Positions 1-54,166 of a stretch of 54,166 nt of DNA are shown in pieces (position 1 is the stretch's first letter; each line of letters opens with the position of its first letter). Source of the DNA: Psammoneis japonica (taxonomy: Eukaryota). The translations under genes were made by a program, and so were the position numbers. Under the pieces are notes generated by a model. It searched no databases. It was given only the letters and a program-made list of their open reading frames with translations, and was not told the DNA's origin. Location of the stretch: NCBI GenBank assembly GCA_008632985.1, contig QPGO01000327.1:1-54166 (forward strand), in the 5' to 3' direction.

Positions 1-371
1 CGTCTTGTTTGACCATCGACCACTGCCGACCAGTCGATCAACGTGACGTGCTTCCTCATCTCCATCCATGCCATTGCATCCATCCAACTATCATGATTTG
101 CTCAGTAAATGCTTCTTGCTGAAGATGCTGCTATGATGCTTTAGACGGCCGGGCAAAAGTAACAAAAACGGCATGGTGATTGGCCCTTCACTTCTACATC
201 AGCAACATGCAACTACGAACTACGTCGTAGTAAACGATGGCATTGACAGTAAATTGAAGATTGAAACAATGTATTATTTACAATATGCAACTCTGGGTGC
301 CTGGTTGCCAAGCAATCATTGGCACCACGACTGACAATCACTGGAGTGGGATATCTACCGGTACTTAGAAC

Positions 372-2899: not shown

Positions 2900-2914
2900 C
2901 ACACACACACACAC
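2900..2914 (+). repeat. (CA)n microsatellite at the gap edge
   Basis: cacacacacacacac directly after the N run. Confidence 0.8.
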
Positions 2915-8610: not shown

Positions 8611-9389
8611 AGACAGGGGATGGAGCAGTTGTTGCATGCGATGCACTGCGTTGGATGGAGACATTTCAGACAGGGGATGGTCGAGTTGCTGCGGTGCACA
8701 AGTGGCTGTCCACCCCTGCGGGCAACACATCATAAATGATCACATTGAAGCCGGGAGCTGCTGGAAAAAACGATTGTGCTGCTGCGGCACAACTTGATGA
8801 CACGTGGCGCCAGGCGCCATGTGCGTCCTGTGCATTGGGGGGGGGGGGGCAGACAGACGCCACCCGCAGCAGCACATGCATTGCCACAGATGCCAAACAC
8901 CCAAATCACAGCCTCACATGCATTTGACTCAATGCACAGATTAGGATTTAGGATTGTTGGCAACTGATTGGCATGAGAAAATGCCACTTTAGACAACAGT
9001 CTTGGTGCAACTGGTTGTTCGTGTGAAACGCACAACTCGGCTCAATCTTCGGCTTACGATTCGTCGGCATGTGGTGCCGGCACGGTGACATGCAGTCGTC
9101 GTCTGCTCGTGTTTTTCACCGAAAAAAAGCGCGAAACGATGCAAGACGTTTTTTCCAGCAGCTCCCACAAAAAGTGTCTACATTTTCGATCGCTTGACAA
9201 AAAATGATGTTTTTAAAATCAACACAAAATTGTTGGTCGAAAAGGACTGCCACGATCGCCGATGCCACCTTTCCAGATTTTTCTGTGACCAAACGGTTGA
9301 AAACTCTCGCTGCCATCATAGAGTTTAATCTCTGCTGCCGTGATCGTGCCGCTGAAACTGTCAAACAATCACAAAAGCTGAACCGAACA

Positions 9390-10832
9390 ATGACATCGTA
9401 TGAAATTCCGCAGCTGGCTGTCAGCACGAGCCTTTCGACTCTGTCTTTGTCGTCGGTTGGCTTTAGCACCCCCATGAACGCGACGAGGACGTTGAAAGAA
9501 CTGCACGAGGGAGCACAACTTGCACCTCCTGCAAAAGCTGATCAATTTTCCGTTGCAGAAATGGAGCGACAAGTGAATGGTTTGTTAGCTCCCGGGCATT
9601 GGGATGGCCTTGATTCGATTGGTCATGCAAAAACATCATTTCTTGTCATGCGCGAGCAACATGAATTGCTGTCGAAGCTCCTCAATGCGACACCGGAAAA
9701 GGTAGCTCAAGCATTTCATTGTGCGTTGGACATGAACCACACATTTGGAAAGAGGCTCGATGCCCTCGTCAGGAAAGGGGGGGACATGTTTTTTTCGGAT
9801 GAGGATCGAGAAGTTGCCAGTTGCCCACTGGCAACGTTTCTGAGCCGCCACAAGGAGTTTTTCGATCCGGACGATGCCCCGACCATTTTCAACTGCCAGG
9901 ATGGGTTCAAACGGGTGGAAAAACCGTTGATCTGGATACAAGAAAATACTTCGACGGTGTGTTACCTTGTCACGGTAGCCTGTGCTGTCTTTTACAACCA
10001 ATGCATCCAAAATGGGGTGACTGCGAACGATGGTCCCGTTGCGGTTCAGAAGCACTCTCTGAATGTCAGCCGGTTCATGAGGGATGAATTCGCAAATGAA
10101 GAAATCTGTGCCAATGTCTTTATGACCCAAGGGGGTCATCCCGATGCAATGATGGAACGCCTTCTCAGGCCCCAGAACCCAAACAAGAAAAAGGTTGTAG
10201 AAGACTGTTGTCTTGACGTCACCATGTCCATTGACTTGATTTTTGCGAATGTCAAACATTGGCTTGGCAAGCATGGTGCGCTTGTGGCTTCTGACTTCAA
10301 AATGTTCCCAAAGCATGTGGCGGACAAAACAAAGTGTGTCTTTCATGGAAACTGGAACGACCTCAAGCAAGACGCCATCGAAAGGGAACTCCAAGAAGCC
10401 CCCATGGATGTCGACGAATGCAACAATTTCTGGGGTCTCCCCCCAAACGACATCCAACTTCATGCTTTTCTCATCATCGGTGTACGACGTACGACAGGTG
10501 AGGATGACATGGGCGGGCTCGCGTTTCTCATTCAGGATTCGTCGGATGAAAGACCGTTTGTCATTGTTGGCCTGGATTTGCCAGTTTCTGCTGGAGTGGA
10601 ACGGTTGCATGCTGTTGCACAGGATGTGGCGTTTGACTCGGAAAACTTTTGTCATGATAGAACAGCCAGTCCGGCCTTCATCATGAGTGGGGGTCACAGT
10701 CCCAGAATCTATGACATCCCCTCGAGCGACAGCAGTGAGGAGGAGAATCTTGAGGAGAGCAACATGGTGAGGAACTTCCATCGCTGTTGGACTCCCATTG
10801 ACCCCGCTGAGATTTCTTGCATCAAAACATAA
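9390..10832 (+). CDS. Papain-like (clan CA) cysteine-protease-fold protein, partly eroded by mutation; may be a pseudogene in the making
   Basis: Open frame 9204-10832, plausible ATG at 9390. Motifs occur in papain order: WIQENTSTVCYL (Q...C), QGGHP, LHAFLIIGVR (cf. NHAVLIVGY) and FLIQDSS (cf. WLIKNSW). Only 4 Tyr in 542 codons. Confidence 0.55.
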   Translation: MTSYEIPQLAVSTSLSTLSLSSVGFSTPMNATRTLKELHEGAQLAPPAKADQFSVAEMERQVNGLLAPGHWDGLDSIGHAKTSFLVMREQHELLSKLLNATPEKVAQAFHCALDMNHTFGKRLDALVRKGGDMFFSDEDREVASCPLATFLSRHKEFFDPDDAPTIFNCQDGFKRVEKPLIWIQENTSTVCYLVTVACAVFYNQCIQNGVTANDGPVAVQKHSLNVSRFMRDEFANEEICANVFMTQGGHPDAMMERLLRPQNPNKKKVVEDCCLDVTMSIDLIFANVKHWLGKHGALVASDFKMFPKHVADKTKCVFHGNWNDLKQDAIERELQEAPMDVDECNNFWGLPPNDIQLHAFLIIGVRRTTGEDDMGGLAFLIQDSSDERPFVIVGLDLPVSAGVERLHAVAQDVAFDSENFCHDRTASPAFIMSGGHSPRIYDIPSSDSSEEENLEESNMVRNFHRCWTPIDPAEISCIKT

Positions 10833-10991
10833 TTGTGATGAAATGCTTTGCGCTTCCATTGCGTGACATGAATGTGTGTGATGTTGGCAATGGAGATGTG
10901 ATGACGTGAGCTGTAGCACGTGACAGAGACGTTCAAAAAGACTCCACAAAAACAGGTGAATGAGTTCAAAAATGAAACTGAAATTTTGCTG

Positions 10992-11437
10992 GGGCACACT
11001 GAATTAATCTCACGTATTGGGCGGTGCCCCTGACCCCACTTTCACCCCAGATTGTCAAAATGTGTAAAACACCCCTGTTTTGTAAAACGCCCTAGTAACA
11101 AGCAGCGGCTTGGGTCGTCATGGTGCTTTCGACAGTCGAGTCGAGCAGTTTTTGCTGTTTGCGCATTCAAATCGCGCGCACTGACAGTGAAAGTTCACTT
11201 CCGGGTTCCTTCTGGTTTTGGTTCGCCATCAAATATGACCGACGACTGACCGACGAATGCTCGAAAAAGCCTGCTACGTAGGATCCTACGTAAGATATAG
11301 GGTAATGAGCCAAAATGTGTGTTTTACACGACGAAGCACGTGTTTTACAGAATAACACGTGATTTTACGATTCCCCCCCTCCCCCCCCCTTCACCGCGAA
11401 GGTTGCGCCCAATACGTGAGATTAATTCAGCGCGCCC
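10992..11437. mobile_element. Non-autonomous TIR element (MITE) of about 450 bp, PIF/Harbinger-like
   Basis: Inverted ends: GGGCACACTGAATTAATCTCACGTATTGGGCG (10992-11023) versus reverse complement GGGCGCGCTGAATTAATCTCACGTATTGGGCG (11406-11437), 30/32 identical. Flanks CTG / CTA are a candidate 3-bp TSD. Subterminal inverted GTGTAAAACAC / GTGTTTTACAC. No ORF. Confidence 0.8.
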
Positions 11438-11449
11438 CTACCATCATGG

Positions 11450-14400
11450 TATCTTGAATCTACGCAACCATTTCAATGACACCGTGTAAATGGGGCTTCT
11501 AGTTGAGAGGAAAATGGGGTTTGCCATTCCTTGACAGCGGGGGAAAAAAGAACAACGTGTGTGTTCACCTCCACATGTCACCACATTGTGCCTTTTCTGA
11601 AACTGAAGTCGTCCGCAATGGGGCACTCGCCCCATCTCGTACACATGTTTCGAAAGATGACAATTGGAGACTAACAAATGTGGTGCCCAGCAAAGGCTCT
11701 ACAAAATTTCGCACCGCCGTTGCAGTTTTATGACGCACACAGCACATCATTGTTTCCGACAACCTTGCCGGTGCGTTGTTTTAATTCTGGTGGACACTGT
11801 CTGACGCTCCATGTGATCACAGTGGAAATGGTGCCGTTTGAGTTGAGGAATGAAATGAAGTTAGTTGGCCTGGGTTCCACAGTTTTCCCTGAGACTAAAA
11901 GGTGCTTCGTAAGAGGTGTGCTCGTTTTGGTCATCCTTCTTTGACGTTGCGTCTGTTGCGGATGCCAGCAAATCGAGAGGCGTCTCTGGTTGCATCTCCC
12001 GACTGTTCCACCATCGATTGGATCCCCTTGGCGCAAAAGTGAAGACCTCCAGTCTGCTGTGAACAAATCTCGGAGTCTTGCCTTGTGCAGCTCTGCCGGG
12101 GCCAAATGGATCTTGAGCCAACAGCGCAATGACCTCTGGCTGTCGCGTCAAGAGTTTCTCCATTCTGGCGGTTCGCCACCTCGCCTTGCATGCAATGGCA
12201 AAAACCAGACTCTCCAATCTGATCTTGGAAGATGGAGAGGCAACACTCTCCCACACTCGTTTGGTCCCTTGTTCAGTTTGCATTTCCAAATGCACTGATG
12301 CCAAGTCACCCCGTCCCGACTCCCCTCAAGGATTGGCTCCCACCTGAAGTCATGCATGCATGCTTGCAAACTTTCCTTGGCAGCTGCAAAGCCGCAAGCT
12401 TTGCTGCCGTCTGCAGAGCAGATGGATTCTGGTTGACAGAGTCTTGATTTGATCTTGGAGCGGCAATGCTCTCAGAGGCCAAGCTTCTGCAAAGTTGTTC
12501 ATTGAGAACTTGCCATGGCCAGCTCGGCTCAATGTCGGAATCAAGGAAACGGCCAAACATGTCATCACCATTGAAGCCACAAGCACCCTGAAACCAATCA
12601 GCAGCGCATCTGGCAAAATGATTCATTTTACAAGGCTGTGTCTTTTGTGAGTTGCAGTTTTTGTCACTGCCCCAAATGAACATGCAGGCATTTTTGTCAC
12701 GATCATGTCCTTGTCGTTGATTGGAAAAAGAAGAGCCCTGAGAACATTTGGCATTCTCCCCTTGTTTTGATTGTCATTTCCTGCTCTCTCAGCAAATGCT
12801 GGGTTCTGCATTGAAATGTTTTGCACTTGTGTGACAGCAAAAAAAGAAGTCATCAATGGGACTTGTGCTTCAATTGTGGTGTCAAAGGCAACCTCAAGAA
12901 GATGGGTCTGGGCAAGAGTGGGGGGCAGGTGTCAAGAAGCTTTCATTTGACATGAGATCTCATCCTGCTTGCCTGCATCCAAGAAAAATGTGACACAACA
13001 CCAAAAATTTTGCGAGACAACTGTCATGATGGCGTTGGCGGTGATGAAGATTCACATTGTCCCTTGTGTGCAGCAACCACTCAAGATGTTGAGCTCACCC
13101 AGATCTGGGTGCGTCATGCTGCAGTCATTTGAGGGAAGCCAGCAATTGTTTGCACTGAGCTTGAGCTCTGCAGAGAAGTCTTTCATTTGTTTCATGATGC
13201 TGGCATTTGTGTGGCGGTGCATCGTGCAGTGCACGCACAGCCAGATGACATGTCAGGAGCCCAAGGTGCACTTGGACCAATGCTGTGCATGTGCTCCACC
13301 TCCTGCATTCACCCCAGCATTGGCAGCACCTGAAGCCACAAGAAACACAATTTCCTTTGTCATCAACAAGGATTTTGTCCCTTCCATGTCAACTCACAAT
13401 GCTTGGCTGCTCTTTTCTCACCTGCAGGATTCGAGAAATGCTTGGGTCAAATTTCAATGTGCCGCTGGGCTGCCATTTGGCAACTCTTTCAAAACAATTT
13501 TTGCCATGACAAGCAAGCTGGGTCAGAGTTCCAACATGTGTTTCAAGCAAGCATGTTGCATCAAAGGACCTGACCAAACTTGCAGTTGCTCCCATGCTGG
13601 AAATTTCCACGTGTGTGCCAGTGTGGGGGTTGCAAGAAGACAACACCAGCTTGTTGTTGCACCAGCTGCACAAACACCATCCTTGCAAGCATGCAGGCTG
13701 TGCTTTGGATGTTCGTTCTTGCATGGTTTTTGACCATGTTGCAACCAATTGTGAGCAGGCATTTGCCTTGATCCTTGATGCAAATGAGCCCCACATCAAG
13801 TGGCAGAATCCTTTGCAGGCCTCAAATCAACACAAAGAGTTGCAAAAAGAGCAAGGACAAAAAACCCGCTGGATGCCTGGCCCAAACACCTTCTCCAAAG
13901 AAGGCCTCAATTGTTGCAAAGCCCCCACCCTGAACATGAGACCATGTCAACATGCCCTTCTTCTTGCAAGTTCCCATTTGCAAGGCAGAGGCAGTGCCCA
14001 AAGAACTGCAATGCATTGCAGTTTTCTGGGCAATCAAAGCAGGTCTAGAGTGGGCATCATCACTGGGATTGTTTGGCTGGCATGGGCTCAAGTTGAAACA
14101 CTGCACTCCCACTGCACATCACCAGTTTCCCATGTGTTTTACATGCAGAACAGTGAGGGTCCTCTTGCAGCAAACAGCACTTCAAATCTGGCATCTCTGA
14201 ATGCTCCAGGCACTGGGCCATCAAAAAAGTGCTGCCCCCTGGCTGTCAACCTTGTCTGGGTCTTGATGCAAATGCCAAAGCAAACTTGCAAACAACCCAT
14301 CAACCACTGTCTGTCCCATCAATCTGATTTGCTTGGGGTGTCATTGATTTGCTCAGAATGGCTCACACCAAGGCATGCTCCATTTGTGAGTCAGCAAGTG

Positions 14401-15270: not shown

Positions 15271-15492
15271 CTTTCGCGCGAGCGCCGCGGTGTCGCGCGA
15301 CTCGAAGATCTGCCGCTCTGCCCTCTCGCCCGCCTCGTCTCTCGCGTGTCGACGATGAACGATGACCGTTAAAGATCGCAATCGACAACAACATTACAGG
15401 AGACGAAGCGTTCTCAACATTCAGCAGACAACTGTATTCATTCTGTATCGTATCTCTACCGCACTTCTATCCTGAAGTAATCGTTCCACACA

Positions 15493-16161: not shown

Positions 16162-16712
16162 ATAAATGAAACAGCGATAAGACATCTCAGTACCAACCTA
16201 GAAATTGTTCAGGTTAGTAGAGAGTGTGCATTGAGTATACAGCTTTCTCCCCAAACTGTACTGTGTATTCAGTGTGTCAAACACACGAAAACAATAGCGG
16301 CGATGTAGAGCAATCCTAATTCTGTGCAATACCCCTCCCAGAAAAGGATGAAACGATTAGATTAGTCTGTAATGCAATTCTGAAGCCGTCCAAACTCCAC
16401 GAAAATCTCCGCAACCATGCATCTGCTGTTAGTTATTAGTGGTTAGCTCTACTCTACTAGCTCTAGTAGCTTCTAGCCCTACTACTACTTAGTTGTACCG
16501 TAGTAGGCCCTAGTAGTCCAAAGTTTGAGCGGGATCTCCGGGTGCCCGCATCTGGTTGAGATTCGGATCGTGACGTCATCAGCGCGATCTTTCCGCGATC
16601 GAAAAAATTCTGCGAAAAATGACCGGACCATGACGACGCACAAAGTCTTCTGAATGGGCTTCGGTTCCGACTTTTTGTACAGTGTGCTATCAACGACAAT
16701 CGCTACAGCACC

Positions 16713-18293: not shown

Positions 18294-18581
18294 GCTTCAA
18301 ACCTGTGGGCTCCTTGACCATGCCACGGATCTGTTCCGAGTAGCAAAGCATTGTTTTGCAAAGGTCCTGTAGTGCTTCTAACTGCTGCCATACTCTTGCT
18401 TGCTTCCAGGTGGTATCAGGTTATGACGATATGTTCATGCGCGTGCTCGCTCTTTTTGAGTCGTGGGGTGACGGGACTGAGATGATGCGTGCACGTCTCA
18501 GCCGCCGAGCACAACTCGAGGAAAGCCACAGCTTGCGAGGCTCACAAAAAAACACATTGTCGTTGCAACCAAAGAAGAACA

Positions 18582-34296: not shown

Positions 34297-35980
34297 GGCG
34301 AAGCGGATTGAAAACTTGGGTTGAACTGCAATCGACTACGTGTATTTGTTTCAGAAATCTTTTGGATAACGTCCCTCAATGAGGGAGAGCACCATAACTT
34401 GTAAATAGTCGGCGGTTCCCTTTCACTTTGTCTTCACTGCACAAATGTACCTTAGTCTGTAGTTCTCCTTCACTTCACGCGTGTCCTCAGTCTGATTCTT
34501 CGATCGATCTCTTTGCATACCACGAAAAGCAAGCTTTTGGCGCGTTCATCGTGAGCCATGCGATACAAGTTTCAGTCTCAATGCGCGCTTCCAGCAAAGT
34601 CCAGCCATTCGCTCGTCAAGGCGGATACGGCGACATTGGTTCAATCAATAGTTCCTCAGAGAGTTCTCTACAAGTCCCGGCGTAGTCGCACTCTGGCGAC
34701 AGCTCATGGTTAAGACAGCAATAGCCAATCGCGGAAAGCTCACAAATTTTGCGTCTTGTTTCCTTCATCAACCCCAATAAAGTCCATTTTGCTCGTTCCA
34801 CGATCGTAGGCATGAATCACTTCAACGGTATCCGTCATTGCAAGTTTGCGTCCGATTTCTCTTGAAAGGAATCTTCCATCTTGCTGGAATCATCATTGGT
34901 AGCATTGAGTAAAATAGTGCGACCTGTATTATGGTGAGACGCGGAATTTGAAGTCTTACGTGTCCTTCAAAGGGTTCCTGTGCGTCATTGTCGTTGACAA
35001 AGTTCTTGAATGCTTGTGATTGTTGTTGCGTATCTCGAGTATAGTATTACTTCGAAGAAGAGATGATTGGTATTCTACCCTCGCTAGATTGACAAAGGCT
35101 TCAATCAATCTCTGATTTCTCAAGGATATTTTCAAAGGCTGTCTTCTTACTCAAAAAAAGGATTCCTGATGGGATGAAAAGAATCTTGACGTGGGTTCTC
35201 GAGGGAATGTAAAAGTGAAACAGGGACGGGTTGCGTTCTTGACCCGTCAATGACTTTTTCTCATGACAAGATGACAAGTCGAAATGCCCGATTTGGCAAT
35301 CATGTCACATGCCAATCTGAATGTTTGCGGAATGCTGCATTATTATTTGTTGTTGCCGTCGCGACCACTTTGTACTTTTGTGGGATCAACAAAGCAACGG
35401 TGATATGCTTCAAAAAGCGACTCCTTTCCAGACTTAACCGGTGCAAATATGTTGCCGTGTTTTGGCTACGATTGTAGTTCAGCCTTTTCTTTACGACTTT
35501 GAAGAAAAATGATTTATAGCAGTGCCCGCGGCTAGCTGGATCATGATGTTGTGGCCAGAGAGAATGCTTCATGAAGAACCGCCAACAAATCCATACTCGT
35601 AAATGCAACTCCAGCGCCCCAGATCCAAAAGAGAAGCCTCTCTATTCTCCTCATTGCAATGTTATGAAATGGAAAGCAGCAACGTCAGGGTTGTACTGTA
35701 ATGCCTCTGCATCTCGTCGCTGTCATCGTTGTTCGTTCTGAGTTCAGTGCCGTGCGTCTCCTCAACTCCTCAACTCTTTTTTTGTTCCGGCGCTCGTGCT
35801 GTCCACCCCAACGATTGAGCGCGCGCGATAGCGCGCGCGTCATGAGGGCGAAGAAAAGAGGGGATGGGCGACGACGACGGCAACAAACTGCTTTTACCGA
35901 CGCCTTCTTAGACACACTCGGTTAACCTCTACATAGCAACGGAAAAAAAGAAAGAAGTGCTTGACGCGACGTGTATAAAG

Positions 35981-40374: not shown

Positions 40375-40929
40375 GGTTTTTAGCTTTGCGTAATTCTTTT
40401 GAGTTTGTTGCTCTTTTGTTTTTTGTGCGACTACTTGTGCAGCATCCCATCACGACAGTGTTCTCATTCGTTCCCACTGTTCTCATCGCACATTGGAAAG
40501 AATGTTCTATGCGATCAAACAAGATCAAAATTTGTGATAGTCTATGAAAAGTATATTGCAACAAAGTATGTCTCGCATCACGTAAATCTGACTTGGGTTC
40601 TTGTCGCGGATCACGTTTCAGTACAAGATCGTCGTGGAATGTGCCATCCCTAACAAAATCGCGACTTTTGTGAGGTCACTTTAAGTATCGACGAGGGACT
40701 TAACGCACGGGTAACATCATCGCGTTTTTGATGCACATGAAGAAATCGCGAATGCAGTCGGACTGTTTTGACGGGAACACAACATGAAAAAGTGAGGGGG
40801 AGCCTCCGAAACGATCAAAAACGCGACCTCGTGTCAGTTTGTGGGACCAACGTACGATGGACGGGCATTTTAAAAGGTGGTCACTGCAGTTGACAAAACT
40901 TTAGGGCCCTACTTGGTGTCACTGTTGTG

Positions 40930-41570
40930 CAGGCTGAACTCGAAGGAAACGATGATGAAGCATACAATACTGTGAAAAAAATTGGTGATGTGCCAGGAAG
41001 AAAGTTTCACATGGTTACATGTCATCAGGCCATGCCTGCAAATGCAGTCTCCACACACTCTACAGGTGGTGTGTGCGAGCACTGCCACACGCGAAGAATG
41101 GTCGACGCATGGACTCACGATGGAGAGTGCTGCAGATGTGCCACATCTGAAAATCTATCACAAAGCAACAGCATTTGGGGCCTCTTCTGCAACTGTCTGA
41201 CCTCTCATCACCATCTTGCGAAATGGCACACACCTGGCCATTGGAAAAAAAAGGCAAAAAAGCAGAGGACAAGAAGGACCTCAAATGCCGTTGGCTGGAA
41301 AGCAGTGTCTGTGCAAAACAGGCTGCTGTTGCTTCCTTTGATGCTGATTGAGACCCCAAAAAGGGGGGGCGGCATGTTGGCTGCTTGCATTGAGTGTTTC
41401 CACCTCCCACAAGCAACTGCAAAATGTGGAGAGCTGGCGGGCATGTTTGACAAAGAAGAAACGAACTTTGCTGACCCCCTCCCCTCACAGTTGTTTTTCC
41501 ACAGTTGTGGATTGAAAGGCATGTCAGGGGCATTGTTAAGAAAGCTCACTGCAGGCAGCAGCTGGTGAGA
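40930..41570. repeat. Small CpG/TpA-depleted island
   Basis: Same TG/CA-rich signature; a few TA persist near the left edge. Confidence 0.6.
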
Positions 41571-41900
41571 GCCGTGCGGTTTTTAAAAATTGATCTGTTA
41601 ACGCAGGTCGATTGGCCAGTGTTGATTGGGCGTTGGTGCGCGGACGGACCTTTTCTTTCTCGCGTGCGTCAGGGATCATTGCAGAATGTGGTTCAGTCAT
41701 GGGTAAGACTCACCATGTAGAATGTCTACGACATGACACGACCACTTCTGTTTCCACGATTGAAACTTCCGTCGAAAAAGTCGCACCCAGAGAAAGGCGA
41801 GACGTCAACAACGGAGGGAAGTTTCAGGCGCCTCAATCTCGGCCCAGCACTTTCGTTATTGCACTCATCTCATTTTCTTCTTCTTCAAGCAGTTTGAAGC

Positions 41901-44311: not shown

Positions 44312-46392
44312 TCAAGCGTTTTCCGTTTCCTTTTCTCTTCTGCGTTCTAACCATTCTGTGTGGTCATACTCACAGGTTCCACCCATATTGATTGGAATCA
44401 TGCTTGGGAAAATGCCATAGCTCGAAAGCGCCTCCACAACCTTTGATTCGGCAACATCATGTACAACAATCCGGGAACGACTATTCTTGGGCTGCTGAGC
44501 AAGTCCAATTGGTTTCAAGAACTTTGACACTACGTACGGTAGGCGAAGCACGTGAGTCCCGCGAACAGGCACGGGAAGAACAGCTTCGTCGAGATTCCCC
44601 ATATTCCACTCAAGTTCTAGGTCGGTGTCAAAAAGGGACGCCCCTTTCATCCATACCAATCGCACAATACCCTCCGAAGCGCCTGGGTGCTGGGCGGCCA
44701 CCTCGCACATGTACCAATATGCCCGAGTCATGTTCTTTGTATTGTACCCTTTATAGTTATTCATGCGTGCGAAACATTGCATCAACTGTCGCCCTGAAGT
44801 ATCCAAGTAAGGAAGCAGTCGAAACAATCCTGCCTCAATAGCTTCTTTATCGTCCTTCACTGCCCCATCCAAAGCCATTGGCAATGTGAACTTGTCGGAT
44901 CCGAACCATTTTCGTCGTTCTTCCCAGTACTTGACGAAACGATGTGCTGCTTTCTCTGGGTCCATATCTTCTCGTTTCAAAAACAATTCCAGTCGCTGAT
45001 CATTTATTTCTACATCACGAGCCTTGGTACGGGCCTCCAGCCACGCTTTCTTTTCACTTGCTGGTATCGAATCCAGGTGACGCTTTAATTCTACCAACAA
45101 ATACGAGACATCACTCGTACTGTTGCAACGTCTTATTCGCTTTGTGGGAGGGGGCGTCGATATGCGTAACTTTCCAAATAGATCTTGTGTGGCGGTGCGT
45201 TGCTCTTCTTCTGAAATGGCAAAATCATCTGCTTTTTGATGATTTGTAGAAGCTTCCGTCAAGGACGTAAACAAGAATTCAGCAGCCGCAATATCCTGAC
45301 TCGTCAGGGATACGTAGGATTCAGGAGGAATGACATGGGCTCTACTCTCTTGCTGTTGCCGATCATCGGGTTCATTATTGTTAAAAGTGGCATCGTGAAG
45401 CCGCTGCATTTCGTCAAGGCTGCGAAAAATTTTGGATAGGCTCCCACCTCCAAAACGACGATTAGACATCTCTCTCTGCAGCTCTTGCGTTGCATCAGGA
45501 TTGTCTTGAGGAATAATGTTTTGAACTGTTGCCTCCTCCTCTATCACCTGCGGCGGTGCTTCCTTCTGTTTCGAATCTCTTGGAGGAACAGTGTGCATAA
45601 TGGGGCGTTGACTAAGTGGGTCTTGCGGTGGCTTCTTTTCCTGTAAAAGTGAACTTGGCGCGTTTAACCTTCCTTTCGCAGCTTCCTCGCGGAATGGAGA
45701 AGGTTTTCGAATCTCCCGAGGCGACTCTGAAGACACCGTGTCTCGTTTTATCGAGCTTGTACGTGGCAGTGCGTGGTAAACACTCATAGACCCCATTGAT
45801 GAAGGCTGAACCACAAGGTGGCTTGCGGGTGCCGGGTGAAAAGACCTTGCCTCCATAGGTGGAGCCACGGGAGCAGTTGCTGCAAAGGGTTGAGAGAGAA
45901 GACCGTGAATCTGCGCTAAATGATTCAGCGCCGGTGAAATGTTTTGTTCCACTGCCATTGTCGAAAACGGAAACGCTTTCGGTTGCGGAGGCTGCGGAGG
46001 CATCACGACTCCAAGCTGATGTAATATATTATAGGAACGATACCCGTAGTTGCTGGCAGTCTCTGCAGCAGAAAATGAGGGTGATTCTTGCACAGTGTCA
46101 GCATCCAAGTTTCTCTTTTCTCTCAGCGCCTGCTTTACTTTCTTGAGTGCTTTTCGGAACTGACTTGTTCCCATTCGCCTGTTTTCTCGGATGCTTCCAA
46201 GAATCTTCCCTTTCGTCTGTAAATTGCACCTAGAATCAGCTGTGCGACGTCGTTCTTTTGCTTTCTGTTGCTCGCATCCTGGTACGCATGCTTGTAGCGT
46301 CGGACGAGCCTTAGAAATTCGCAGTTGCCAAGGTGCTCTCGTGAGCCTTTTCCCCTTCCAAACAATACATCATTGTCACTTGGTTCCAACAT
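44312..46392 (-). CDS. DUF6824-type N-terminal domain plus low-complexity linker plus CRAL-TRIO-like domain; apparent 1-nt deletion at 46151-46154
   Basis: NDVLFGRG...HLGNCEF...KGRFLE...WEQVS joins KALKKVKQALRE if one A is added. C-terminal FLKREDMDPEKAAHRFVKYWEERRKWFG, DTSGRQL and YGIFPSMIPINMGG. Confidence 0.8.
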
Positions 46393-47025
46393 GAAAATCA
46401 AGATGTTCAGAACACAGTAAGGTTACGAAATACGAACTTGCCTAAGCGTTTTTGTCATGGCGCGGTGAGAACATCTATTTTTGAGGGCAAGTTGAAGTTG
46501 TCAAGGGCGGGGGGAGTGCAGAGAGTGGGAGCGCGCACACCCACGGTGCAACCTGCACTTCATGACAATCGATGTGTCGATTGTCGATTGCTCTTTGTCG
46601 CTCGCCGACTCTGCTTCCTCTCGTGTCTGATGCGCTCTTAGTCGAGCACTCTGGTTGGTTGTGGAATGGGCCACGAGCACCAGACCTCGAGCTAGAGGGC
46701 TCCCATTCCGGGGACCAGGAATTGGAGCTCTGGCTGGAGAGCCGCAAAGGGTGGGCTGTGCAGGCTGCAAACGAAACTCGCTCTCTCGTCTCATCAACGT
46801 GCAGTGCAACATTGATGAAGAAAAAGAGTGAGTTTGCTGTGACTCAAATGGTGCTTGTAGACTCATGCACTGCTTCTGCGATGTGAGCAGCGTCGCAAAG
46901 CAGATCGCAAAAACAACCCCCCACTCACACAGGGGGGAGGCACAGACCACTGCATCTCATTGGTCTCCGATCTGCGCCAAAAAGTTACAATGGGGCTCCC
47001 AACATGGGGGTGCAAAGTTGCAAGC

Positions 47026-47492
47026 AGTGCAGTTGGATTGGAGCTCTTTGTGGTGCAAAACGACACAAAATGATGTGGTGCAGCGCAAAAAGTGCTGCGG
47101 CAGAGTGTGCCTGGAAGCACCAGCAGGTTGATTTTTTTAGAGCAAGGTGATTTACCTCCCACACCAGAGCTGCTCCAGCAAACAGTGCAGTTGGAGCTGA
47201 GCTCTTTGTGGTGCAACATGACAAAATGGTGTGGTGTGGTGCAAAAAGTGCTGCAGCAGAGTGTGCCTGGAAGCACCAGCAGGTTGATTTTTTTAGAGCA
47301 AGGTGATTTGCCTCCCATGCCAGAGCTGCTCCAGCAAACAGTGCAGCAGGAGTTGAGCTCTTTGTGGTGCAAAATGACAAAATGATGTGGTGCAGCGCAA
47401 AAAGTGCTGCGGCAGAGTGTGTCTGGAAGCACCAGCAGGTTTTTTTTTTTTAGAGCAAGGTAATTTACCTCCCACGCCAGAGCTGCTCCAGC
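47026..47492 (+). repeat. 156-bp tandem repeat (about 3 copies) inside a CpG/TpA-depleted island (about 46780-47492)
   Basis: ctggaagcaccagcagg starts at 47111, 47267 and 47423 (period 156). Confidence 0.92.
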
Positions 47493-47767
47493 GAATCCAT
47501 TCAGATGGCCTTTGGTGCCCCTCTAATAGAGGACCTTAGCTTCTACTCTCTAGCTCTCTACTCTAGAGAGTCGTCGTCGAGTGAACCGCAGAGCTCGAAT
47601 AAGCTGCACAAGTCACCGAGTCATTTGACTGAATCGCGCGAATCATCACGCTCGATCGACCCGACGGACCGACACGTTGAAATTGTTGTTGGTTGTTAGC
47701 AGTACGATACCGGTAGTATGGCAATGAGGTGTCAAACTGAAAGTCCTCCCTCTTCATCAACTCCACC

Positions 47768-49116
47768 ATGAACGGCGATGCAAAGCAAGAAACAGAGGCG
47801 GAGAACAACATCAATGGTGCAAAGGCACCTTTTTATAGAATTGTGTTGACGGGTGGTCCGTGTGGAGGAAAGACAACCGCGTTGGAACGTGTTTCGTCGT
47901 ATCTCCGAGAGCGTGGCTTTGAAGTGATTACGTGTCCCGAAGTGTTTACGATTCTAGCGTCAAACGGACTGTCTCTCGATTATTTTTCAACAGACGGCAT
48001 GGATTTAATCATTCAAGGTACAGTCATTTCGGTTCAAACATCCATGGAAGACGGGTTGGAACGAGTCCTCCGAGCACGTGGCAAACCAGCCGTGTTGCTT
48101 TGTGATCGAGGAATCATGGATGGGTCGGCGTACATGGACCCCGCCAAGTGGAATCAGTTGTTGGAATCCCGCAATTTAGATGTGACTGATATTCGCGAGG
48201 GCCGATACAACGCTGTGTACCACCTGTTGACCGCAGCCAATGGAGCACGTGAGTTTTACACGCTAGACAATAACGCAGCAAGAAGTGAGACTGCGGATGA
48301 AGCTGTTGAAGTGGATCTCAAGACACAAAAAGCATGGGTGGGCCACCCCAAACTGACTGTCATTGATAATTCCACAGCTTTTGAACCTAAACTACAAAAG
48401 TTGGTGAATGCTGTGAGCAAACTGGTTGGGCTACCTTCCAATTTGAGACGCGTCACGACCAAGTTCTTGTTGCGCTGCAAACCTGACGTTGAAGCGCTGG
48501 TTCAACAACACGGTGTTGACATTCATGTGTTTGAAGTTGAAAAGGTGTACTTGGTGCATGTCGATGCACAAGTAGATGATTCTTCACCCTTCAAGGAGGA
48601 GTATAGCTTTGTACGGAAACGAACCATTATTAGAAGCGATGGCACTCGTGGTGGATCCGTGTATGGTTTCACCGCGGCTCAAGTGACCAAAGACGACAAG
48701 GAAATTGAGGTGAAGCGTATCATCAGCAGTCGCGAGTATCTCGCAGCTGTCAAAACACGCGACTTGAAGCGGCACATTATTCGGCAGCGACGAATCTGCT
48801 TCTTGTACCATTTGCAGAGCTTTTCCATTCATGTAAGTGTTTCGAGAATCAATCAATCGATTAATCTACCTGTTGCAAGTGCATATAATCGCACTCGTGG
48901 TTGCTTTCTCAAACTCACTCCTTAATAATATGATTTATGACTCGGAAACAGGAATATGAAGAGCCTGTATCTGACATTTGCATTCTCCACGCCCAAGTCG
49001 AATCGTCGGGTGACGAGCAAGCCAAAGTACATTTGCCCCCATTCTTGGACGTGGACAGACGCTTACATAAAGAAGACGAAGCTTACAGTGCCTATAGCAT
49101 CTCAATGATTAAATAG
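47768..49116 (+). CDS. P-loop AAA_28 (Ttd14-like) protein with a C-terminal CYTH-like domain; intron 48833-48951
   Basis: RIVLTGGPCGGKTT, LLCDRGIMDGSAY, YTLDNNAARSE and KAWVGHP; terminal exon contains LPPFLDV...AYSAYSIS. Confidence 0.88.
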
Positions 49117-49168
49117 AGAGAGTTATGGCTCTAGAGAGTACAATCAATTAAATATCAAAGGATAGTCT

Positions 49169-49315
49169 TACACAACACAAACTCTTCATGAGTCTCTCAC
49201 TCTAGCTTCTACTTTTTCTCGACGTCTTTCTCGACAAATACACAACACAGATTCTTCATGAGTCTCTGCCTACTTAAGTAGCTTCTACTTTTTCTCGACG
49301 TCTTTCTCGACAAAT
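49169..49315. repeat. Tandem duplication of about 70-76 bp covering the stop codon and 3' end of the 49285-50145 gene
   Basis: tacacaacaca...tcttcatgagtctct...tagcttctactttttctcgacgtctttctcgacaaat occurs twice (49169-49239 and 49239-49315). Confidence 0.88.
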
Positions 49316-50145
49316 TCAACGTCGATAATGTCATCCTTATTCATTGGGTTTCTTCCTAACCTTTCCGTGTAGCCACCTCCAGTATCACCACCTTTGTCCG
49401 AAACATCAATGTTGTAGCTTCTGCCAGCCACATGTAACACAAGCCGAGTAATTCCTTGCTCGTTTGCAGTCATGGTGGCAGACCCGTTTTGGAAATACCC
49501 CTGAACGGGAAAGGATGCTTGGATTTGTGATGTCATTTTACCATTAATGTTTGTAGTGCTGGAGCTTTGTGAAAAGGGTGACTGCACAACAATGGGTTCA
49601 CCCAGAGCTTTTGTTGCAGCAGTGTCGCGCACAATAAAGGTTCGGGCATCGTCCAGTAATTCTGACATTTGGCGTTGCTGTTCGCCCACGGATTCAGCGA
49701 GTGTCGAAGCCATACCAGATACCAGTGGAGCAATCATGGAACCCATCATTCTGACTGGAAGTGGGGCATCTTTGAGAATTTCTTTCAATCCGCCTTTGAT
49801 TTCGTTCTTCATTTGCTTTCTGGCGAGTTCTGCTTTTTTCTCTTCTTTGGATTTAAACAAATTCTTTGGAAGAAGACTTTTGACTGTGTCTGCTGCCTTT
49901 CCTAGGAAGCTATCATTACCCTTCCTGGAAGCATAGAGACGGAGCGTCTGATGCTGAGATCTTGACAACGTCGCTCCTCCTAGCGGTTGTAATGTCGGGT
50001 GTGCAATCACGCGGTTGCTTTGGGGCAAAGTAGGAGCGAACGCGTATGAGGATGTCAACGCTGCCGCAGCTGTCCAACAAAACAAGCGTCTAGATAAGCG
50101 TCGTGGGGAGGACAACGCTTTAGATAAGGACGGAGATCGCATCAT
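49285..50145 (-). CDS. Predicted plastid-targeted protein of unknown function
   Basis: 286-aa ORF with a hydrophobic stretch ending SSYA-FAP (ASAFAP-like), an S/T/R-rich transit-like segment, PFSQSSSTTNING and a terminal DIIDVEFVEK. Confidence 0.75.
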   Translation of the reverse strand: MMRSPSLSKALSSPRRLSRRLFCWTAAAALTSSYAFAPTLPQSNRVIAHPTLQPLGGATLSRSQHQTLRLYASRKGNDSFLGKAADTVKSLLPKNLFKSKEEKKAELARKQMKNEIKGGLKEILKDAPLPVRMMGSMIAPLVSGMASTLAESVGEQQRQMSELLDDARTFIVRDTAATKALGEPIVVQSPFSQSSSTTNINGKMTSQIQASFPVQGYFQNGSATMTANEQGITRLVLHVAGRSYNIDVSDKGGDTGGGYTERLGRNPMNKDDIIDVEFVEKDVEKK

Positions 50146-50449
50146 TTGAACAATTGAAAAGCTTCGAAAATAGGAAGATCGATGGAGGCAAATGGAGGGT
50201 TGATGGCGAATGGCGAATCATCTGGAATGAATCATCATCATCCTCGCGGGACGACACGAGATTTTTCCGCCGCGTGTCGTCCGTCGCCCGTCTGTGCGTG
50301 GTGTCCATCACTCAGCTTTCAAGCGCCCCCCGTGAGATTTTTGGATTTGGATGTTGAAGTGCAAAAAGGACAACTGAGAAGAAGAAAAGGAAAGAGAGAG
50401 GGAATGGAAGGAAGGAGAATAAAGAGAGAAGGGAGCCTCACCAGGTTGT

Positions 50450-52400
50450 GATTCGGGTTCAAGGACCCAGTCAAAACCAACACACCACCTTGCAAGCAGC
50501 ACCAGTGTGTGCTGGTTGGCAGAGCAAGAGCACAAGGTGACAACTTGCAAGCGTTGAAATGTGCATTTGGTTCAGCGGCATCATTGTGCTTTGTGGCACG
50601 CTGCTTCTGATGCAATCCTTTGATTTCTGGGAGATTCTTGTGGGATTTTCCTTCTGGGGGCATGGCAGGAAAATTGACAAAAAAGCCAACAACAGAGCTG
50701 CAAGAGTCATGCAGTGTGATGAACAATTTCGATTCTCTGCAACATGCATTGTTGATTAACTCAAGTGCTCCATGGTCCAACATCCCGACCATTTTCCATT
50801 GCAACTTCTTCACAACAGTGCTTTCGCTCTGACAAAAACTCAACAAGCGCTGTCATTCCATCCGCAAGAAGCGCAGCTGTGTTTTCAGCTGCCACTCACA
50901 AAGCCAAAAGAACCTGAGCCACAAAAAAAATGAAAAGCCAGCCCATGACTGAGTCTGCAGGGGATGCAGCAAACAGACCAAATTTGTGCATGACAGCCAG
51001 AAACCTTTTGGACATTTGAGTCATCCATGTGAGATCTTTTTGTTTGTTCTGTTCCACCAGATGTGTCACACTGTCTCCCAGCACTCAGGAGGAAGCCTCT
51101 TTTCCCAACTTCCATTGTCATCCATTGGCATTCTGGCAGGTCACAGCCTTGCATGATTGTCTGATTTTCCTGCACTTTGATTCAACTTCTCATTTTTGAT
51201 GTGTGTCGAGTGTTTTGTGTGAGCTGGTCAAGCCCCCCTGAACTGCTGGGAAAGTGCTGGCACCTTCTGAGGGGCAGTGGTGTTTGCATTGGCAATTTTG
51301 AAAAGCAACACCATGCACCAAAGAGCCCCAAGAACAGCCCCACTGCCTCTTTTTGCTGAAACTTGCTTGAAATTTTAGAAATGCTCTCTTTGCTTCCAAC
51401 AGCTCCCACATGCACTTGAATGCCTTTTGTTTGGATTCTTTGATCTTTGATCTTGGCAACTCCTTTGTCAACCCAGCCCTGGTTTTTGTGTCTGTCTGGG
51501 TGGCAGTGTGTCATGACAGCAGCTTGAGGCTCTTGGCACTGGGAACAACATGGAAGACAATCTCTTTTCCAGCAAATGTGTGTTTGTCCTGAGGAAGTTC
51601 AGAGTGCATTCCTCAAGATTTTGTTGTGATCTCACATGTTTCCACAGAACAACAACAGCTGCTGCTGAAAGACTTCTTGCACATCCTGGCACAGCTTCCA
51701 GTTGGGAAACTCAGTGGGCCATTTTCTGGTGGCCAAATTTGGTGCATGAGCTCTGCAGCTGGTGCACCAAGCAAGACCCCCCCCCCCCCCCCAACACAGC
51801 ATTTGTGGCTGACATCAAAGCAAGGGCCGCTTGCTTTTGCAGCACTGCCGTGCCTCTTCACACTCAAAATGTCAAAAAATCCAGCACTTGAGCATGTCAT
51901 CTCATGGCTGGTGTGTGCCCACCTGAAGCAGCAAGCTGTTGTTGTCAAGCTTTTCCTGTGAAAGTGTCAGCTTTCTTGAGGAGTGATGAGCACACACACA
52001 AGTTGCAGCCTCTCAACTGCATGTGATGGTTCTGTTGTTTTGCGCCACCCACAAGCTCGCAAGAAAAGCCAGGCACACAAGTTGTTTTGCCATGAGATTG
52101 AACATGACACTGCTGGAGGTTGGTGTGCAGCTGTTTGGTGCTTGCACTGCAACAACATTTGAGGTCCTCCAGGTTTAGCACCCGCCTCTAATGCTGGAGC
52201 GTGCTCATGCTGTTTGTTGGAGTGGCGGTGCTTTTGTGAGGGTGCTTCCAGGGCGTCTGTGGCCGTTTTCAGAAACACTTCTCATGACTTGACAATGGCT
52301 CCAGTGCCACGTGCTGGGCCAGTGTGTGTGGTGCGGGATGGTTCTGCACTGCAGTCTCTCTAGAGAGAGAGCAGAGAGCAGACTTGAGTGGGAATGATGC
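50450..52400. repeat. CpG/TpA-depleted island
   Basis: Same signature over about 2 kb; only spurious Cys/His-rich ORFs. Confidence 0.72.
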
Positions 52401-53005
52401 TGATTTTTGTTGTTTGTTCGGATGTGCCGGCAGACGACTCACAAGGATGCCCACGCCGCCACGCACGCACAGCCAGACCTTTGTTCGTCCACCCGGGACA
52501 GGTTTACGTTGGGGGAAATATTGGTTATCCTAAAGCTCTTATAGGAATATGACTTTTTTGAAAAAACATTTCATCTATATTTTTGATAGAGACAAAAATT
52601 TTCTAAGATCATATTATTAGTAATCATAGATGTTAATAACTTATAATTAAAATTAATCTCGAATTATTATATTTATCTTGAACGGAAAGGTTTTTGGCGG
52701 CTATTCGGCAAGCTCATAAACTCATGAGCAGACGGCGACGGCGGGATGCTCATCTGATGCTGTACGATGACGATTGAAGGAGGGAACGACGAATCGGAAG
52801 TAGAGGAGGTTGATTGTTATTTGGTGAGTGGGCTCAGTGTGATCTGAGCGCCACAAAAGCGACGACCTGGCCTCTGCTTTCCCAAGAAATGCAGCAGCGT
52901 ACGACCACCAGCAACAACTCATCGATCGAAAGCCTGGTGCACAACTCGTCTCCCCTGACGGAGGAGAAAGCACCAGGAGAGGGGCCCAACGAAGCGACGG
53001 TTGTT

Positions 53006-54166
53006 GTTGCCTTGGAGAGGAAGAAAGTTCGAAGCGTGAACTCAGGGCCTCCACCAAATGGCAAGCTGTCAAACATTGATGAAGAGTCATTCCGAAAGCC
53101 AGACGAGCCATGTGTCTTGGATGAAGTGTTGAAGCAACCGTTCACCAGGGGTGTTTCGGGGCGCCAAAGAGCAAGCGATGCCGACAAGAGTGATGCTTCG
53201 GTGGAGGCGAGCGGGGGAGAGAGCGAGGAAGACGAATCTCGCAATGCATCTCGGCCGAAACGGGATGTTGCCTTGGAGAGGAAGAAAGATCGCAGCGTGA
53301 ACTCAGAGCCTCCATCAAACAGTAGCTGTCAAACATTGATGAAGATCATTCCAACAGCCAGACGAGCCATGTGTCTTGGATGAATGTGTTGAAGCGAGCA
53401 TTCACCAGGGTGTTTCCAGGAGCCAAGGAGCAAGCGGTGCTGACAAGAGTGACACTCCGGCAGAGGCGAGCGGAGGAGAGAGCGAGGAAGATGAATCTCG
53501 CAGTGCATCTCAGCCGAAACGAAATGGTGAATTCGACCGCCTTCATGACATGGAGGGACACGAAATTGTGATTGATCCGGATTCGAAAGAAGCTCCGCCA
53601 AAGGCAGAACGGGGAATCCCCCTGTTTCGAGCAAGGTCGTCTTTTAGGTGGAAGAAAAAGAAGGCGTCCGACACGATTGTGGGCGATGACAGCTCGAAAT
53701 CAAGTGGCAAAGTGGACTCCGTGGAAGTCAATCAGGGGCTCGAGATTGAGCGCAGCAATGAATCGCTCCAGATGTCACAGAAAAAACGATCAAAGATGCG
53801 TTCTTTTGGATCTAAGTCGCTGGCAAGACTTGGATCGCGCAGAGCGCCGTCTTTGGACAATCCAGCGAATCCAAGCCATGTTGAACCCGAAGATCACTCT
53901 TCCCACCAGAAAACCGCAGCCATTGCGACGTCCAAAGACAAGCCATGTGTCTTGGATGAAGGTGTTGAAGCGAGCGTTCACCAAGGCATTTCTGGGAGCC
54001 AAGGACCAAGCGACACTGACAAGAGTGATGCTCCGGTAGAGGCGAGCGGAGGACAGAGCGAGGAAGACGAATCTCGTAATACATCTCAGCCGAAACGGGA
54101 TGGTGAATTCGACCGCCTTGCTGATGCGGCGGGACACGAAATTGTGATCGATTCGGATTCGCAACA
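53006..54166 (+). repeat. Three diverged copies of a unit of about 260-320 bp within a decaying acidic/basic low-complexity coding-like sequence
   Basis: agccatgtgtcttggatgaa..tgttgaagc.a.c.ttcacca.gg...gacaagagtga...aggcgagcgg...agcgaggaaga.gaatctcg recurs near 53106, 53364 and 53941. The frames are broken. Confidence 0.85.

What the first reader, a model, noticed from the sequence alone, without database searches (positions are those of the whole stretch)
53100..54166. Polarised TpA decay: one TA site became CA in one copy and TG in another
Seen: copy C has ctccggTAgaggcgagcgg (TA at 54037), copy B has ctccggCAgaggcgagcgg (53461) and copy A has cttcggTGgaggcgagcgg (53202). Likewise atctcgTAaTAcatctc (54077, 54080) is atctcgCAaTGcatctc in A (53242, 53245) and atctcgCAgTGcatctc in B (53501, 53504). 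A TA ancestor gives TG and CA by one transition each, on either strand; the extra A/G difference at 53503 fits a WA->WG signature. Caveat: an ancestral CG could also give TG, CA and, with two hits, TA. The island-wide absence of TA argues against that.
Basis: partly seen in the sequence, partly recalled or inferred. Interest (0 to 1): 0.75.

Follow-up and report, generated by a model that had tools for sequence, protein, structure and literature searches.

The report
TA-erasing mutator recoding a host gene
Three internal repeats of an ordinary protein-coding gene in an alga (probably a diatom) show that its TA letter pairs are being rewritten to CA or TG about a hundred times or more faster than other changes, a mutation process so far described in only one unrelated alga, where it was measured on virus-derived DNA.

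Summary
A, B and C are internal repeats of one ~1,700-codon PDZ-domain host ORF, not dispersed repeats; CG is normal here (o/e 1.03), TA 0.11. Copies differ by 9 adjacent CA/TG double changes in 567 bp where CpG decay predicts 0.3. Across 3 copies x 3 haplotypes, 12 columns show both CA and TG; 5 keep TA in some row, 0 show CG. A public DNA run differs from the allelic contig at 36 bases, all transitions, 35 in pyrimidine-purine steps: 15 of 93 TA sites against 1 of 3,244 other bases. Elsewhere in the window an allele pair gives direction: 46 TA lost, 1 gained. The WA->WG idea fails (AA/TT 1 of 410). It works like the TpA hypermutation of Bigelowiella natans (2026 preprint), here leaking RIP-style into a host gene; enzyme unknown. 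The scan found this process before on other DNA of this genome.

The parts
52767..54166 (+). 5' part of a long host ORF (1,717 codons stop to stop in the state shown by run X1; PDZ domain near residues 585-670, beyond the window end on contig C213)
   Evidence: Pfam PDZ E 3.1e-6, 27.9 bits over cut-off 23.2; PDZ and C-terminal motif shared with paralogue L015; first ATG 52767. Broken in the window by 5 one-base indels (about 52832, 53126, 53151, 53323, 53345) that neither C213 nor X1 shows
53005..53270 (+). repeat copy A (96-bp head shared with B, 170-bp core shared with B and C)
53266..53926 (+). repeat copy B (head, core from 53360, and a ~400-bp tail shared with C)
53936..54166 (+). repeat copy C, cut by the contig end; continues on C213 (567 bp at 90% identity to B)
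54037..54038 (.). surviving TA (GTA, Val) = CA at 53461 in B (GCA, Ala) = TG at 53202 in A (GTG, Val)
54080..54081 (.). TA in the window, CA in C213 and X1, TG in A (53245) and B (53504): all three outcomes at one site
54077..54078 (.). TA in all three haplotypes of C, CA in A (53242) and B (53501); not polarised by itself
53062..53063 (.). CA in window and C213, TG in copy B of C213 and X1, TA kept in run X1
53417..53418 (.). CA in window and C213, TG in copy C (53993), TA kept in run X1
53623..53624 (.). TG in B; matching site in the tail of C is CA in C213 and TA in run X1
53599..53600 (.). CA in the window, TA in C213 and X1
52431..52810 (.). AT-richer single-copy spacer upstream of the ORF that keeps its TA (30 TA, o/e 0.90); possible promoter (inferred)
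50250..52430 (.). upstream spent island, TA o/e 0.04, CG o/e 0.28; a second one lies just downstream of the gene on C213 (73628-75077, TA 0.06, CG 0.21)
9269..12200 (.). internal control for direction: window allele lost 46 of 76 TA present in the collinear contig C142 (24 to TG, 22 to CA), 4 of 122 CG; 1 difference the other way

Best explanation
The three copies are old in-frame duplications inside a genuine host gene (large, low-complexity PDZ protein) that lies between two decayed repeat islands. A regional mutator converts TpA to TpG on either strand (read as TA->TG or TA->CA), hundreds of times faster than background, and it has been active since the three haplotypes separated. Shown: TA is the ancestral state, the change is TA-specific, both outcomes occur, it is regional and can hit one allele and spare the other, it runs ahead of CpG loss, and it recodes protein. 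Inferred: the domain is set by position (silent chromatin spreading from neighbouring transposon debris, as in RIP leakage; about 0.65), and the chemistry is deamination of the A in TpA to inosine by a TadA/ADAT-fold or related DNA deaminase, read as G at replication (about 0.5). CpG->TpG/CpA is a second, slower process in the same domain (ordinary 5mC decay, inferred).
For: Doubles: 9 CA/TG in 567 bp vs 0.30 expected from the observed CG decay (P 4e-11); a TA model fits with about 20 ancestral TA (3.5 per 100 bp, 95% range 1.8-5.9; ordinary DNA of the window has 3.8) and 90% lost per copy. Columns with TA in some row: 9 of 10 vary, 5 show both outcomes; columns with CG: 14 of 48 vary, 0 show both (Fisher 5.5e-5). 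Run X1 vs C213: 36 differing bases, 0 transversions; 15 TA singles, 12 CG singles, 4 CA/TG doubles, 1 other; 0 differences in 1,534 bp of spent island. TA 15 of 93 vs non-YR 1 of 3,244: about 520-fold, lower bound about 94-fold. Window vs C213 at 52128-54166: 4 TA singles, 1 double, 1 CG single, nothing else, against 39 TA-type of 267 differing bases at 24948-46800. Direction 46:1, TG:CA 24:22. TA is low beyond amino-acid composition: o/e 0.18 and 0.31 vs 0.53-0.94 in 18 control ORFs; CG 0.95 and 0.79 vs 0.67-1.20. Three PDZ paralogues have 2.8-4.1% TA vs 0.8%. Position: the gene copy at 9375-10832 is stripped in the window but not in C142, where a 5.6-kb insertion separates it from the left island. 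Precedent: TpA->TpG/CpA in Bigelowiella mutation-accumulation lines.
Against: No enzyme, lesion, chromatin or expression data. The spacer 52431-52810, which lies between island and gene, keeps its TA (2 of 32 differ vs 13 of 53 in the ORF), so simple linear spreading is not enough. 4 of the 9 variable TA columns show only TA and CA, and two window/C213 differences (52431, 54080) need either parallel losses or a new TA; single sites may be new TAs. 4 doubles between X1 and C213 are more than a uniform per-site rate would give, so rates differ among sites or bursts occur. Recent events are skewed to TA->CA on the sense strand (18:5, P 0.011; C213 lineage 12:1), which a lesion on A in the non-transcribed strand would not predict. 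X1 is one sample, held as contigs that drop variants; 15 of 23 laid records were not listed, so some columns rest on the assembly only. Allelism of C213 and C142 with the window is inferred from collinearity.
Confidence: 0.78

Rival explanations
1. Ancestral CG: methyl-CpG deamination gave TG in one copy, CA in another, and TA by two hits.
For: CG decay does occur here: 14 of 48 CG columns vary, 12 of 348 CG sites differ between X1 and C213; the genome has 27 matches to the C5 DNA methylase family; diatom repeats are CG-methylated (passages of 10.1101/2021.06.11.447926).
Against: Expected doubles 0.30 vs 9; CG at 0 of 12 double columns in 9 rows, TA at 5; CG o/e is normal; hot CG sites would need an ancestral 11.2 CG per 100 bp vs 6.0 in ordinary DNA; 0 CG/TA doubles in A-B, B'-C', A-C.
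Confidence: 0.03
2. Same process, different chemistry: the lesion is on the T of TpA (a modified or oxidised thymine that pairs with G), not on A.
For: Recent losses in this gene are mostly T->C on the sense strand (14 of 15 singles between X1 and C213; 18:5 with doubles), as expected if a T lesion persists on the non-transcribed strand (inference; transcription not shown).
Against: No strand skew in the larger set at 9269-12200 (24:22); sense-strand CA and TG totals in the gene are equal (420 vs 410); the skew sits mainly in one lineage and was noticed after the fact. A Tet_JBP search found nothing, but its control also rang nowhere, so it is uninformative.
Confidence: 0.2
3. Error-prone repair synthesis (pol eta-like, WA->WG) during repair of T:G mismatches in methylated DNA makes the A:T mutations as collateral damage.
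For: TA and CG changes co-occur in the same domains; in the C213 lineage 17 of 19 inferred TA and CG losses fall on one strand; WA is a known hotspot of somatic hypermutation (passages of PMC6423074; its link to pol eta is recalled and seen in the abstract start of PMC7884765).
Against: AA/TT are not hit (1 of 410 vs 46 of 76; 3 of 44 transitions in B'-C'; AA o/e 1.1-1.3 in islands); no transversions (0 of 36); TA loss is heavy where CG loss is slight (46 vs 4). A TA-restricted polymerase error cannot be excluded.
Confidence: 0.12
4. Targeting by homology (RIP-like): the internal repeats themselves attract the mutator, not the neighbouring islands.
For: TA o/e is lowest in the repeat-bearing 5' part (0.18) and highest in the last third (0.47); the unique spacer next to the island keeps its TA.
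Against: The next 800 codons are as depleted (0.22); 8 of the 13 recent TA singles in the ORF lie in the 3' part, where repeats are only 67-71% alike or absent; the gene at 9375-10832 has the same C120 relatives on both alleles, yet only one allele was stripped.
Confidence: 0.25
5. No special mutator: low TA follows from a Tyr-poor low-complexity protein, selection or gene conversion, or the differences are sequencing artefacts.
For: Tyr is 8 of 1,717 residues; the assembly has one-base indel errors here.
Against: Depletion remains after fixing the amino-acid sequence; PDZ paralogues have normal TA; changes are about half non-synonymous (25 of 38 codons); an independent run shares the doubles, matches the spent island exactly and has CA or TG at 6 sites where the assembly has TA.
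Confidence: 0.03

Closest known systems
TpA-restricted hypermutation in Bigelowiella natans (Mettrop et al., bioRxiv 10.64898/2026.01.13.699255)
   Same: A:T->G:C transitions only at TpA, giving TpG and CpA; regional; rate orders of magnitude above background; uneven among lineages; long-term TpA depletion; A-deaminase proposed, not shown.
   Different: There the measured targets are integrated NCLDV and virophage DNA in a rhizarian, with 210 of 211 and 20 of 20 mutations A:T->G:C. Here the target is a host PDZ gene in a probable diatom, CpG decay runs in the same domain, and the evidence is comparative, not from mutation-accumulation lines. The preprint does list host-like Pfam domains among TpA-poor CDS but shows no before/after case in the parts read.
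Repeat-induced point mutation (RIP) and RIP leakage in ascomycetes
   Same: Regional, dinucleotide-specific transition mutagenesis around repeats that overruns into adjacent single-copy genes (passage in PMC3105345). Diatoms carry DNMT4 enzymes related to RID, of unknown function.
   Different: RIP turns C:G into T:A, mostly at CpA, and creates TpA (abstract start of PMC2621366; TpA gain recalled); this process destroys TpA, and CA->TA was seen at 0 of 170 sites.
CpG decay by 5-methylcytosine deamination in methylated diatom repeats (DNMT5)
   Same: Same end products TG/CA from a palindromic step; accounts for the CG singles here and for the CG loss in the flanking islands (inferred).
   Different: Cannot give the doubles or the TA loss.
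A:T mutagenesis at WA motifs in somatic hypermutation (pol eta)
   Same: A->G at TA.
   Different: WA includes AA, which is spared here; no transversions.

Membership tests
B. natans-type TpA hypermutation | A:T->G:C transitions confined to TpA | tested here: met
   46 of 76 TA vs 1 of 410 AA/TT; 15 of 93 TA vs 1 of 3,244 non-YR bases
B. natans-type TpA hypermutation | Both TpG and CpA outcomes | tested here: met
   24 TG: 22 CA; 12 columns with both
B. natans-type TpA hypermutation | Regional, rate far above genome background | tested here: met
   about 520-fold, lower bound about 94-fold; control ORFs have normal TA
B. natans-type TpA hypermutation | Uneven between lineages | tested here: met
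   one allele lost 46 TA, the other 1; alleles, not lines, so an analogue
B. natans-type TpA hypermutation | Target is integrated viral or other foreign DNA | tested here: not met
   target is a PDZ-domain ORF with three ordinary paralogues in the genome; origin of the flanking islands not determined
B. natans-type TpA hypermutation | C:G->T:A almost absent in the hypermutable region | tested here: not met
   12 CG events beside 15 TA singles and 4 doubles; only 4 vs 46 at 9269-12200
B. natans-type TpA hypermutation | De novo rate measured per generation; same enzyme | not testable with these tools
   needs mutation-accumulation lines; the enzyme is unknown in both organisms
RIP (RID/DIM-2) | C:G->T:A transitions, CpA->TpA | tested here: not met
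   CA->TA 0 of 170, TG->TA 1 of 219
RIP (RID/DIM-2) | Triggered by sequence homology | tested here: inconclusive
   repeat part lowest in TA, but weakly repeated parts also hit; one of two alleles with the same relatives spared
RIP (RID/DIM-2) | RID/DNMT4 present and required; premeiotic timing | not tested
   27 PF00145 matches were listed but not assigned to families
5mC-driven CpG decay | CG is the ancestral step at the CA/TG columns | tested here: not met
   0 of 12 columns show CG, 5 show TA; 0.30 doubles expected vs 9
5mC-driven CpG decay | DNA is CG-methylated | not testable with these tools
   no methylome
pol eta WA->WG mutagenesis | AA mutated as well as TA | tested here: not met
   1 of 410; 3 of 44 transitions

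The most novel reading that the evidence does not exclude
A dedicated, chromatin-guided TpA DNA editor, shared by descent between stramenopiles and rhizarians, is active in this alga today, works ahead of and independently of CpG methylation decay, and spills into expressed host genes, where it removes tyrosines and recodes conserved residues allele by allele: a mirror image of RIP leakage that diversifies live genes, made by a natural DNA adenine (or thymine) editing enzyme not yet identified.
Probability: 0.3. Interest if true: 0.88.

Novelty: new variant of a known kind. Interest (0 to 1): 0.63.

Why it matters
A TpA-specific DNA mutator is known from one 2026 preprint in a rhizarian alga; four library searches found no report for diatoms. 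This locus gives site-level before/after proof that the loss of TA is mutational, directional, separate from CpG decay and recent, and that it reaches a host gene with an intact frame. It names a short amplicon where three states of one site segregate, so the rate, the damaged base (A or T) and the enzyme become directly testable in a culturable, probably transformable group. A natural double-stranded-DNA A-to-G editor would also interest base-editing work. If the mechanism is shared with Bigelowiella it is an old SAR genome-defence system.

Tried and rejected
Collecting dispersed copies of the unit: only the allelic contig C213 was found (2 candidates scored); no third contig for the 3' part of the gene. 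Orthologue as outgroup: 215 candidates, none at E<=0.001 for the PDZ part among proteins of 678-2,158 aa; Atlas hits at 0.90 are generic PDZ clusters, the first with Bacillariophyta commonest among only 3 members of known phylum, so 'diatom' rests on this weak hint and on earlier notes, and no true outgroup was obtained. Expression: no RNA holder listed; no evidence either way. Run X2 laid nothing. Same-strand (processive) mutation: suggested by the C213 lineage (17:2) but not seen in the X1 lineage (8:8) or at 9269-12200 (24:22, outcomes interleaved); kept only as an unexplained skew. TAY preference: 32 of 46 at 9269-12200 (P 0.011) but not evident among the recent events in this gene (7 of 17 by my reading). 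Enzyme hunt: 9 PF00383 matches, several with an HxE..PCxxC motif, not typed further; every eukaryote has such genes, so uninformative. Tet_JBP: no match, control silent. Recoding of conserved PDZ residues: 5 positions could derive from a TA codon matching a paralogue, e.g. Thr628 (ACA) against Ile/Val/Val; suggestive only. Older 3' repeats (67-81% alike) give weak doubles excess (1, 4, 3 vs 0.35, 1.36, 0.66). One of the 18 control ORFs (33001-34335) has no Tyr and may be a wrong frame; it was kept. Differences within 5, 2 or 3 columns of a gap were dropped before counting (18 of 299).

Full report
OBSERVATION. The window is the whole of contig C326 of a 91-Mb, 597-contig eukaryotic assembly. 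Its genes are eukaryotic; 'diatom' rests on earlier notes and one weak Atlas hint, not on a test of mine.

WHAT THE COPIES ARE. They are not dispersed repeats. The own-genome search found only a collinear contig, C213, 99.4% alike over 52128-54166. On C213 five one-base indels of the window are absent and the copies lie in frame in an ORF of 511 codons followed by one of 1,233. Contigs of public DNA run X1 agree with C213 at those five places and carry two further inserted letters; with them the frame is open for 1,717 codons and ends in a motif shared with a paralogue on C58. The protein has a PDZ domain (Pfam E 3.1e-6, over the cut-off) and three PDZ paralogues at 32-40% identity in the genome. 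So A (53005-53270), B (53266-53926) and C (53936 onward) are in-frame duplications in a host gene. The gene sits between two spent islands (50250-52430, TA o/e 0.04, CG 0.28; C213 73628-75077, TA 0.06, CG 0.21), with a 380-bp single-copy spacer upstream that keeps its TA. No RNA run was listed, so expression is unknown.

COMPOSITION. In 53100-54166 TA o/e is 0.11 and CG o/e 1.03: TA is lost and CG is not, unlike the islands. Fixing the amino-acid sequence and recoding with the window's codon usage, TA o/e is 0.18 in the repeat part and 0.31 in the rest, against 0.53-0.94 in 18 control ORFs; CG is 0.95 and 0.79 against 0.67-1.20. The paralogues have 2.8-4.1% TA, this gene 0.8%.

TA OR CG ANCESTOR. 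A palindromic step that decays on opposite strands in two copies leaves an adjacent CA/TG double difference. B' and C' (567 bp, 56 mismatches) have 9 such doubles; A-B 4, A-C 3, and the window's own B-C 5; random placement gives 0.36, 0.23, 0.16 and 0.28. The same pair shares 34 intact CG and has 9 single CG differences, so CG decay is 12% per copy and predicts 0.30 doubles (P 4e-11). It shares 1 TA and has 2 single TA differences; a TA model fits with about 20 ancestral TA (3.5 per 100 bp; ordinary DNA here has 3.8) and 90% lost per copy. The direct test: in the alignment of 3 copies x 3 haplotypes, 12 columns hold both CA and TG; TA survives in some row at 5 (53062, 53417, 54037, 54080, 53623) and CG at none. 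Of 48 columns with CG, 34 are invariant, 14 show one outcome, none both. Two more X1-TA/C213-CA sites in older 3' repeats have TG in the paralogous position. One of the 12 columns (53776) lies outside the listed X1 pieces.

RECENT ACTIVITY. X1 differs from C213 at 36 bases of the 8 kb laid, all transitions: 15 single TA<->CA/TG, 12 single CG<->CA/TG, 4 CA/TG doubles, 1 other; none in 1,534 bp of spent island. That is 15 of 93 TA sites, 12 of 348 CG sites and 1 of 3,244 bases outside pyrimidine-purine steps: about 520-fold for TA, lower bound about 94-fold. Window against C213 at 52128-54166 gives 4 TA singles, 1 double and 1 CG single and nothing else, whereas at 24948-46800 TA-type changes are 39 of 267 and transversions 100. 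About half of the changes in the ORF alter the protein. With one background event no date can be given.

DIRECTION AND SPECIFICITY. Contig C142 is collinear with window 32-18306. At 9269-12200, 46 of its 76 TA are TG (24) or CA (22) in the window; 1 difference runs the other way; CG 4 of 122; AA->AG or TT->CT 1 of 410; CA->TA 0 of 170. So TA is lost, not made; AA is spared, which removes the WA->WG reading of 53503; and TA loss precedes CG loss (next door, 7001-9300, TA is nearly gone and 49 CG sites differ). The ORF there lost 10 of 14 Tyr in the window allele. C142 carries a 5.6-kb insertion between that ORF and the left island, which fits a position-dependent domain.

RESULTS AGAINST, OR UNEXPLAINED. 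The spacer next to the island is spared (2 of 32 vs 13 of 53). Four variable TA columns show only TA and CA, 54077 among them, and cannot be polarised singly; 52431 and 54080 need parallel losses under the simplest haplotype tree. Four doubles between X1 and C213 exceed a uniform rate. Recent losses in this gene are skewed to TA->CA on the sense strand (18:5; C213 lineage 12:1, X1 lineage 6:4), while the C142 set has no skew. X1 is one sample of contigs; whether it is another strain or the same culture is unknown.

MECHANISM. Shown: a regional, TpA-specific, double-outcome transition mutator, recently active, distinct from CpG decay, recoding a host ORF. Inferred: targeting by silent chromatin around transposon debris (about 0.65; homology targeting 0.25) and deamination of A to inosine (about 0.5; T lesion 0.2; TA-restricted repair error 0.12). 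The genome has deaminase-fold and C5-methylase genes, which proves nothing.

COMPARISON. It works like the TpA hypermutation measured in Bigelowiella natans (10.64898/2026.01.13.699255; I read parts 1-3 of 5: abstract, results, discussion, conclusion; not methods or supplements). Two of that system's described features are not met here (foreign target; absence of C:G->T:A), so I do not file it as a member but as a variant. In logic it mirrors RIP leakage (passage of PMC3105345) with the opposite chemistry. For diatom methylation and DNMT4 I saw passages of 10.1101/2021.06.11.447926; for WA, passages of PMC6423074; PMC2621366 and PMC7884765 only as search listings with abstract starts. Searches for a diatom report found none; most subscription journals are outside the library.

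PRIOR NOTES OF THE SCAN. The process was noted many times on other DNA of this genome, also in a host gene and at 2900-15270 of this window; I took the preprint lead from them. No note matched this sequence. What this locus adds is a three-haplotype, three-copy proof of the TA ancestor and of recent activity inside an open host frame with CG intact.

VERDICT. Real, non-random, TA-derived; a new variant of a barely described kind; interest 0.63.

Noticed in passing
window 9375-10832 (+) vs C142 155341-156798 (L036): 485-codon ORF with no Pfam match and two 87-89% relatives on C120; the window allele differs at 38 codons (25 non-synonymous) and has lost 10 of 14 Tyr to His or Cys. A cleaner before/after pair than the finding itself.
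   Followed up: yes
window 7001-9300: Later stage of decay: 49 CG differences, 5 TA singles and 5 doubles between window and C142 in 2,270 bp.
   Followed up: partly
window 10991-11438: 448-bp element with 33-nt inverted ends, absent from C142, TA o/e 0.72 inside a stripped domain: probably inserted after the TA loss.
   Followed up: partly
C213 about 91690-102300 (L012, L013): About 10.6-kb insertion missing from the window (which has about 730 other bases at 40872-41603); TA-poor, CG near normal; split direct repeats in the order A1...B1-A2-B2, a layout recalled from tyrosine-recombinase retroelements, with no Pfam support. A1 keeps TA at 4 of 6 sites where A2 has CA/TG; B1/B2 have 8 CA/TG doubles in 448 bp.
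   Followed up: partly
C142 149662-155234 (L035, L036): 5.6-kb insertion with a weak DDE_Tnp_4 match (E 5e-4, under the cut-off); TA falls in its first 3 kb and is normal beyond, as if it absorbed the domain edge.
   Followed up: partly
window 44700-54166 vs C213: Allelic divergence drops from about 1.3% to nearly nil (2 differences in 2,694 bp at 47501-50200): recent homogenisation, which makes the later TA changes stand out.
   Followed up: partly
L011 2000-8129: Inferred TA and CG losses in the C213 lineage fall 17:2 on one strand, in the X1 lineage 8:8; not reproduced elsewhere.
   Followed up: partly
window 52431-52810: Single-copy spacer with 30 TA (o/e 0.90) between a spent island and the stripped ORF; something protects it.
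   Followed up: partly
window 7528-7926: About 400-bp repeat with more than 30 listed copies at 86-91% identity in the genome; a ready set for context statistics.
   Followed up: no
window 47020-47495: Three 156-bp tandem copies, TA- and CG-poor, with 2, 1 and 0 CA/TG doubles in the three pairings.
   Followed up: partly
L056 (C301 34166-37723): 27 matches to the C5 DNA methylase family in the genome; one 365-codon open frame has only 0.2% TA, so a methylase-like gene has itself been stripped.
   Followed up: no
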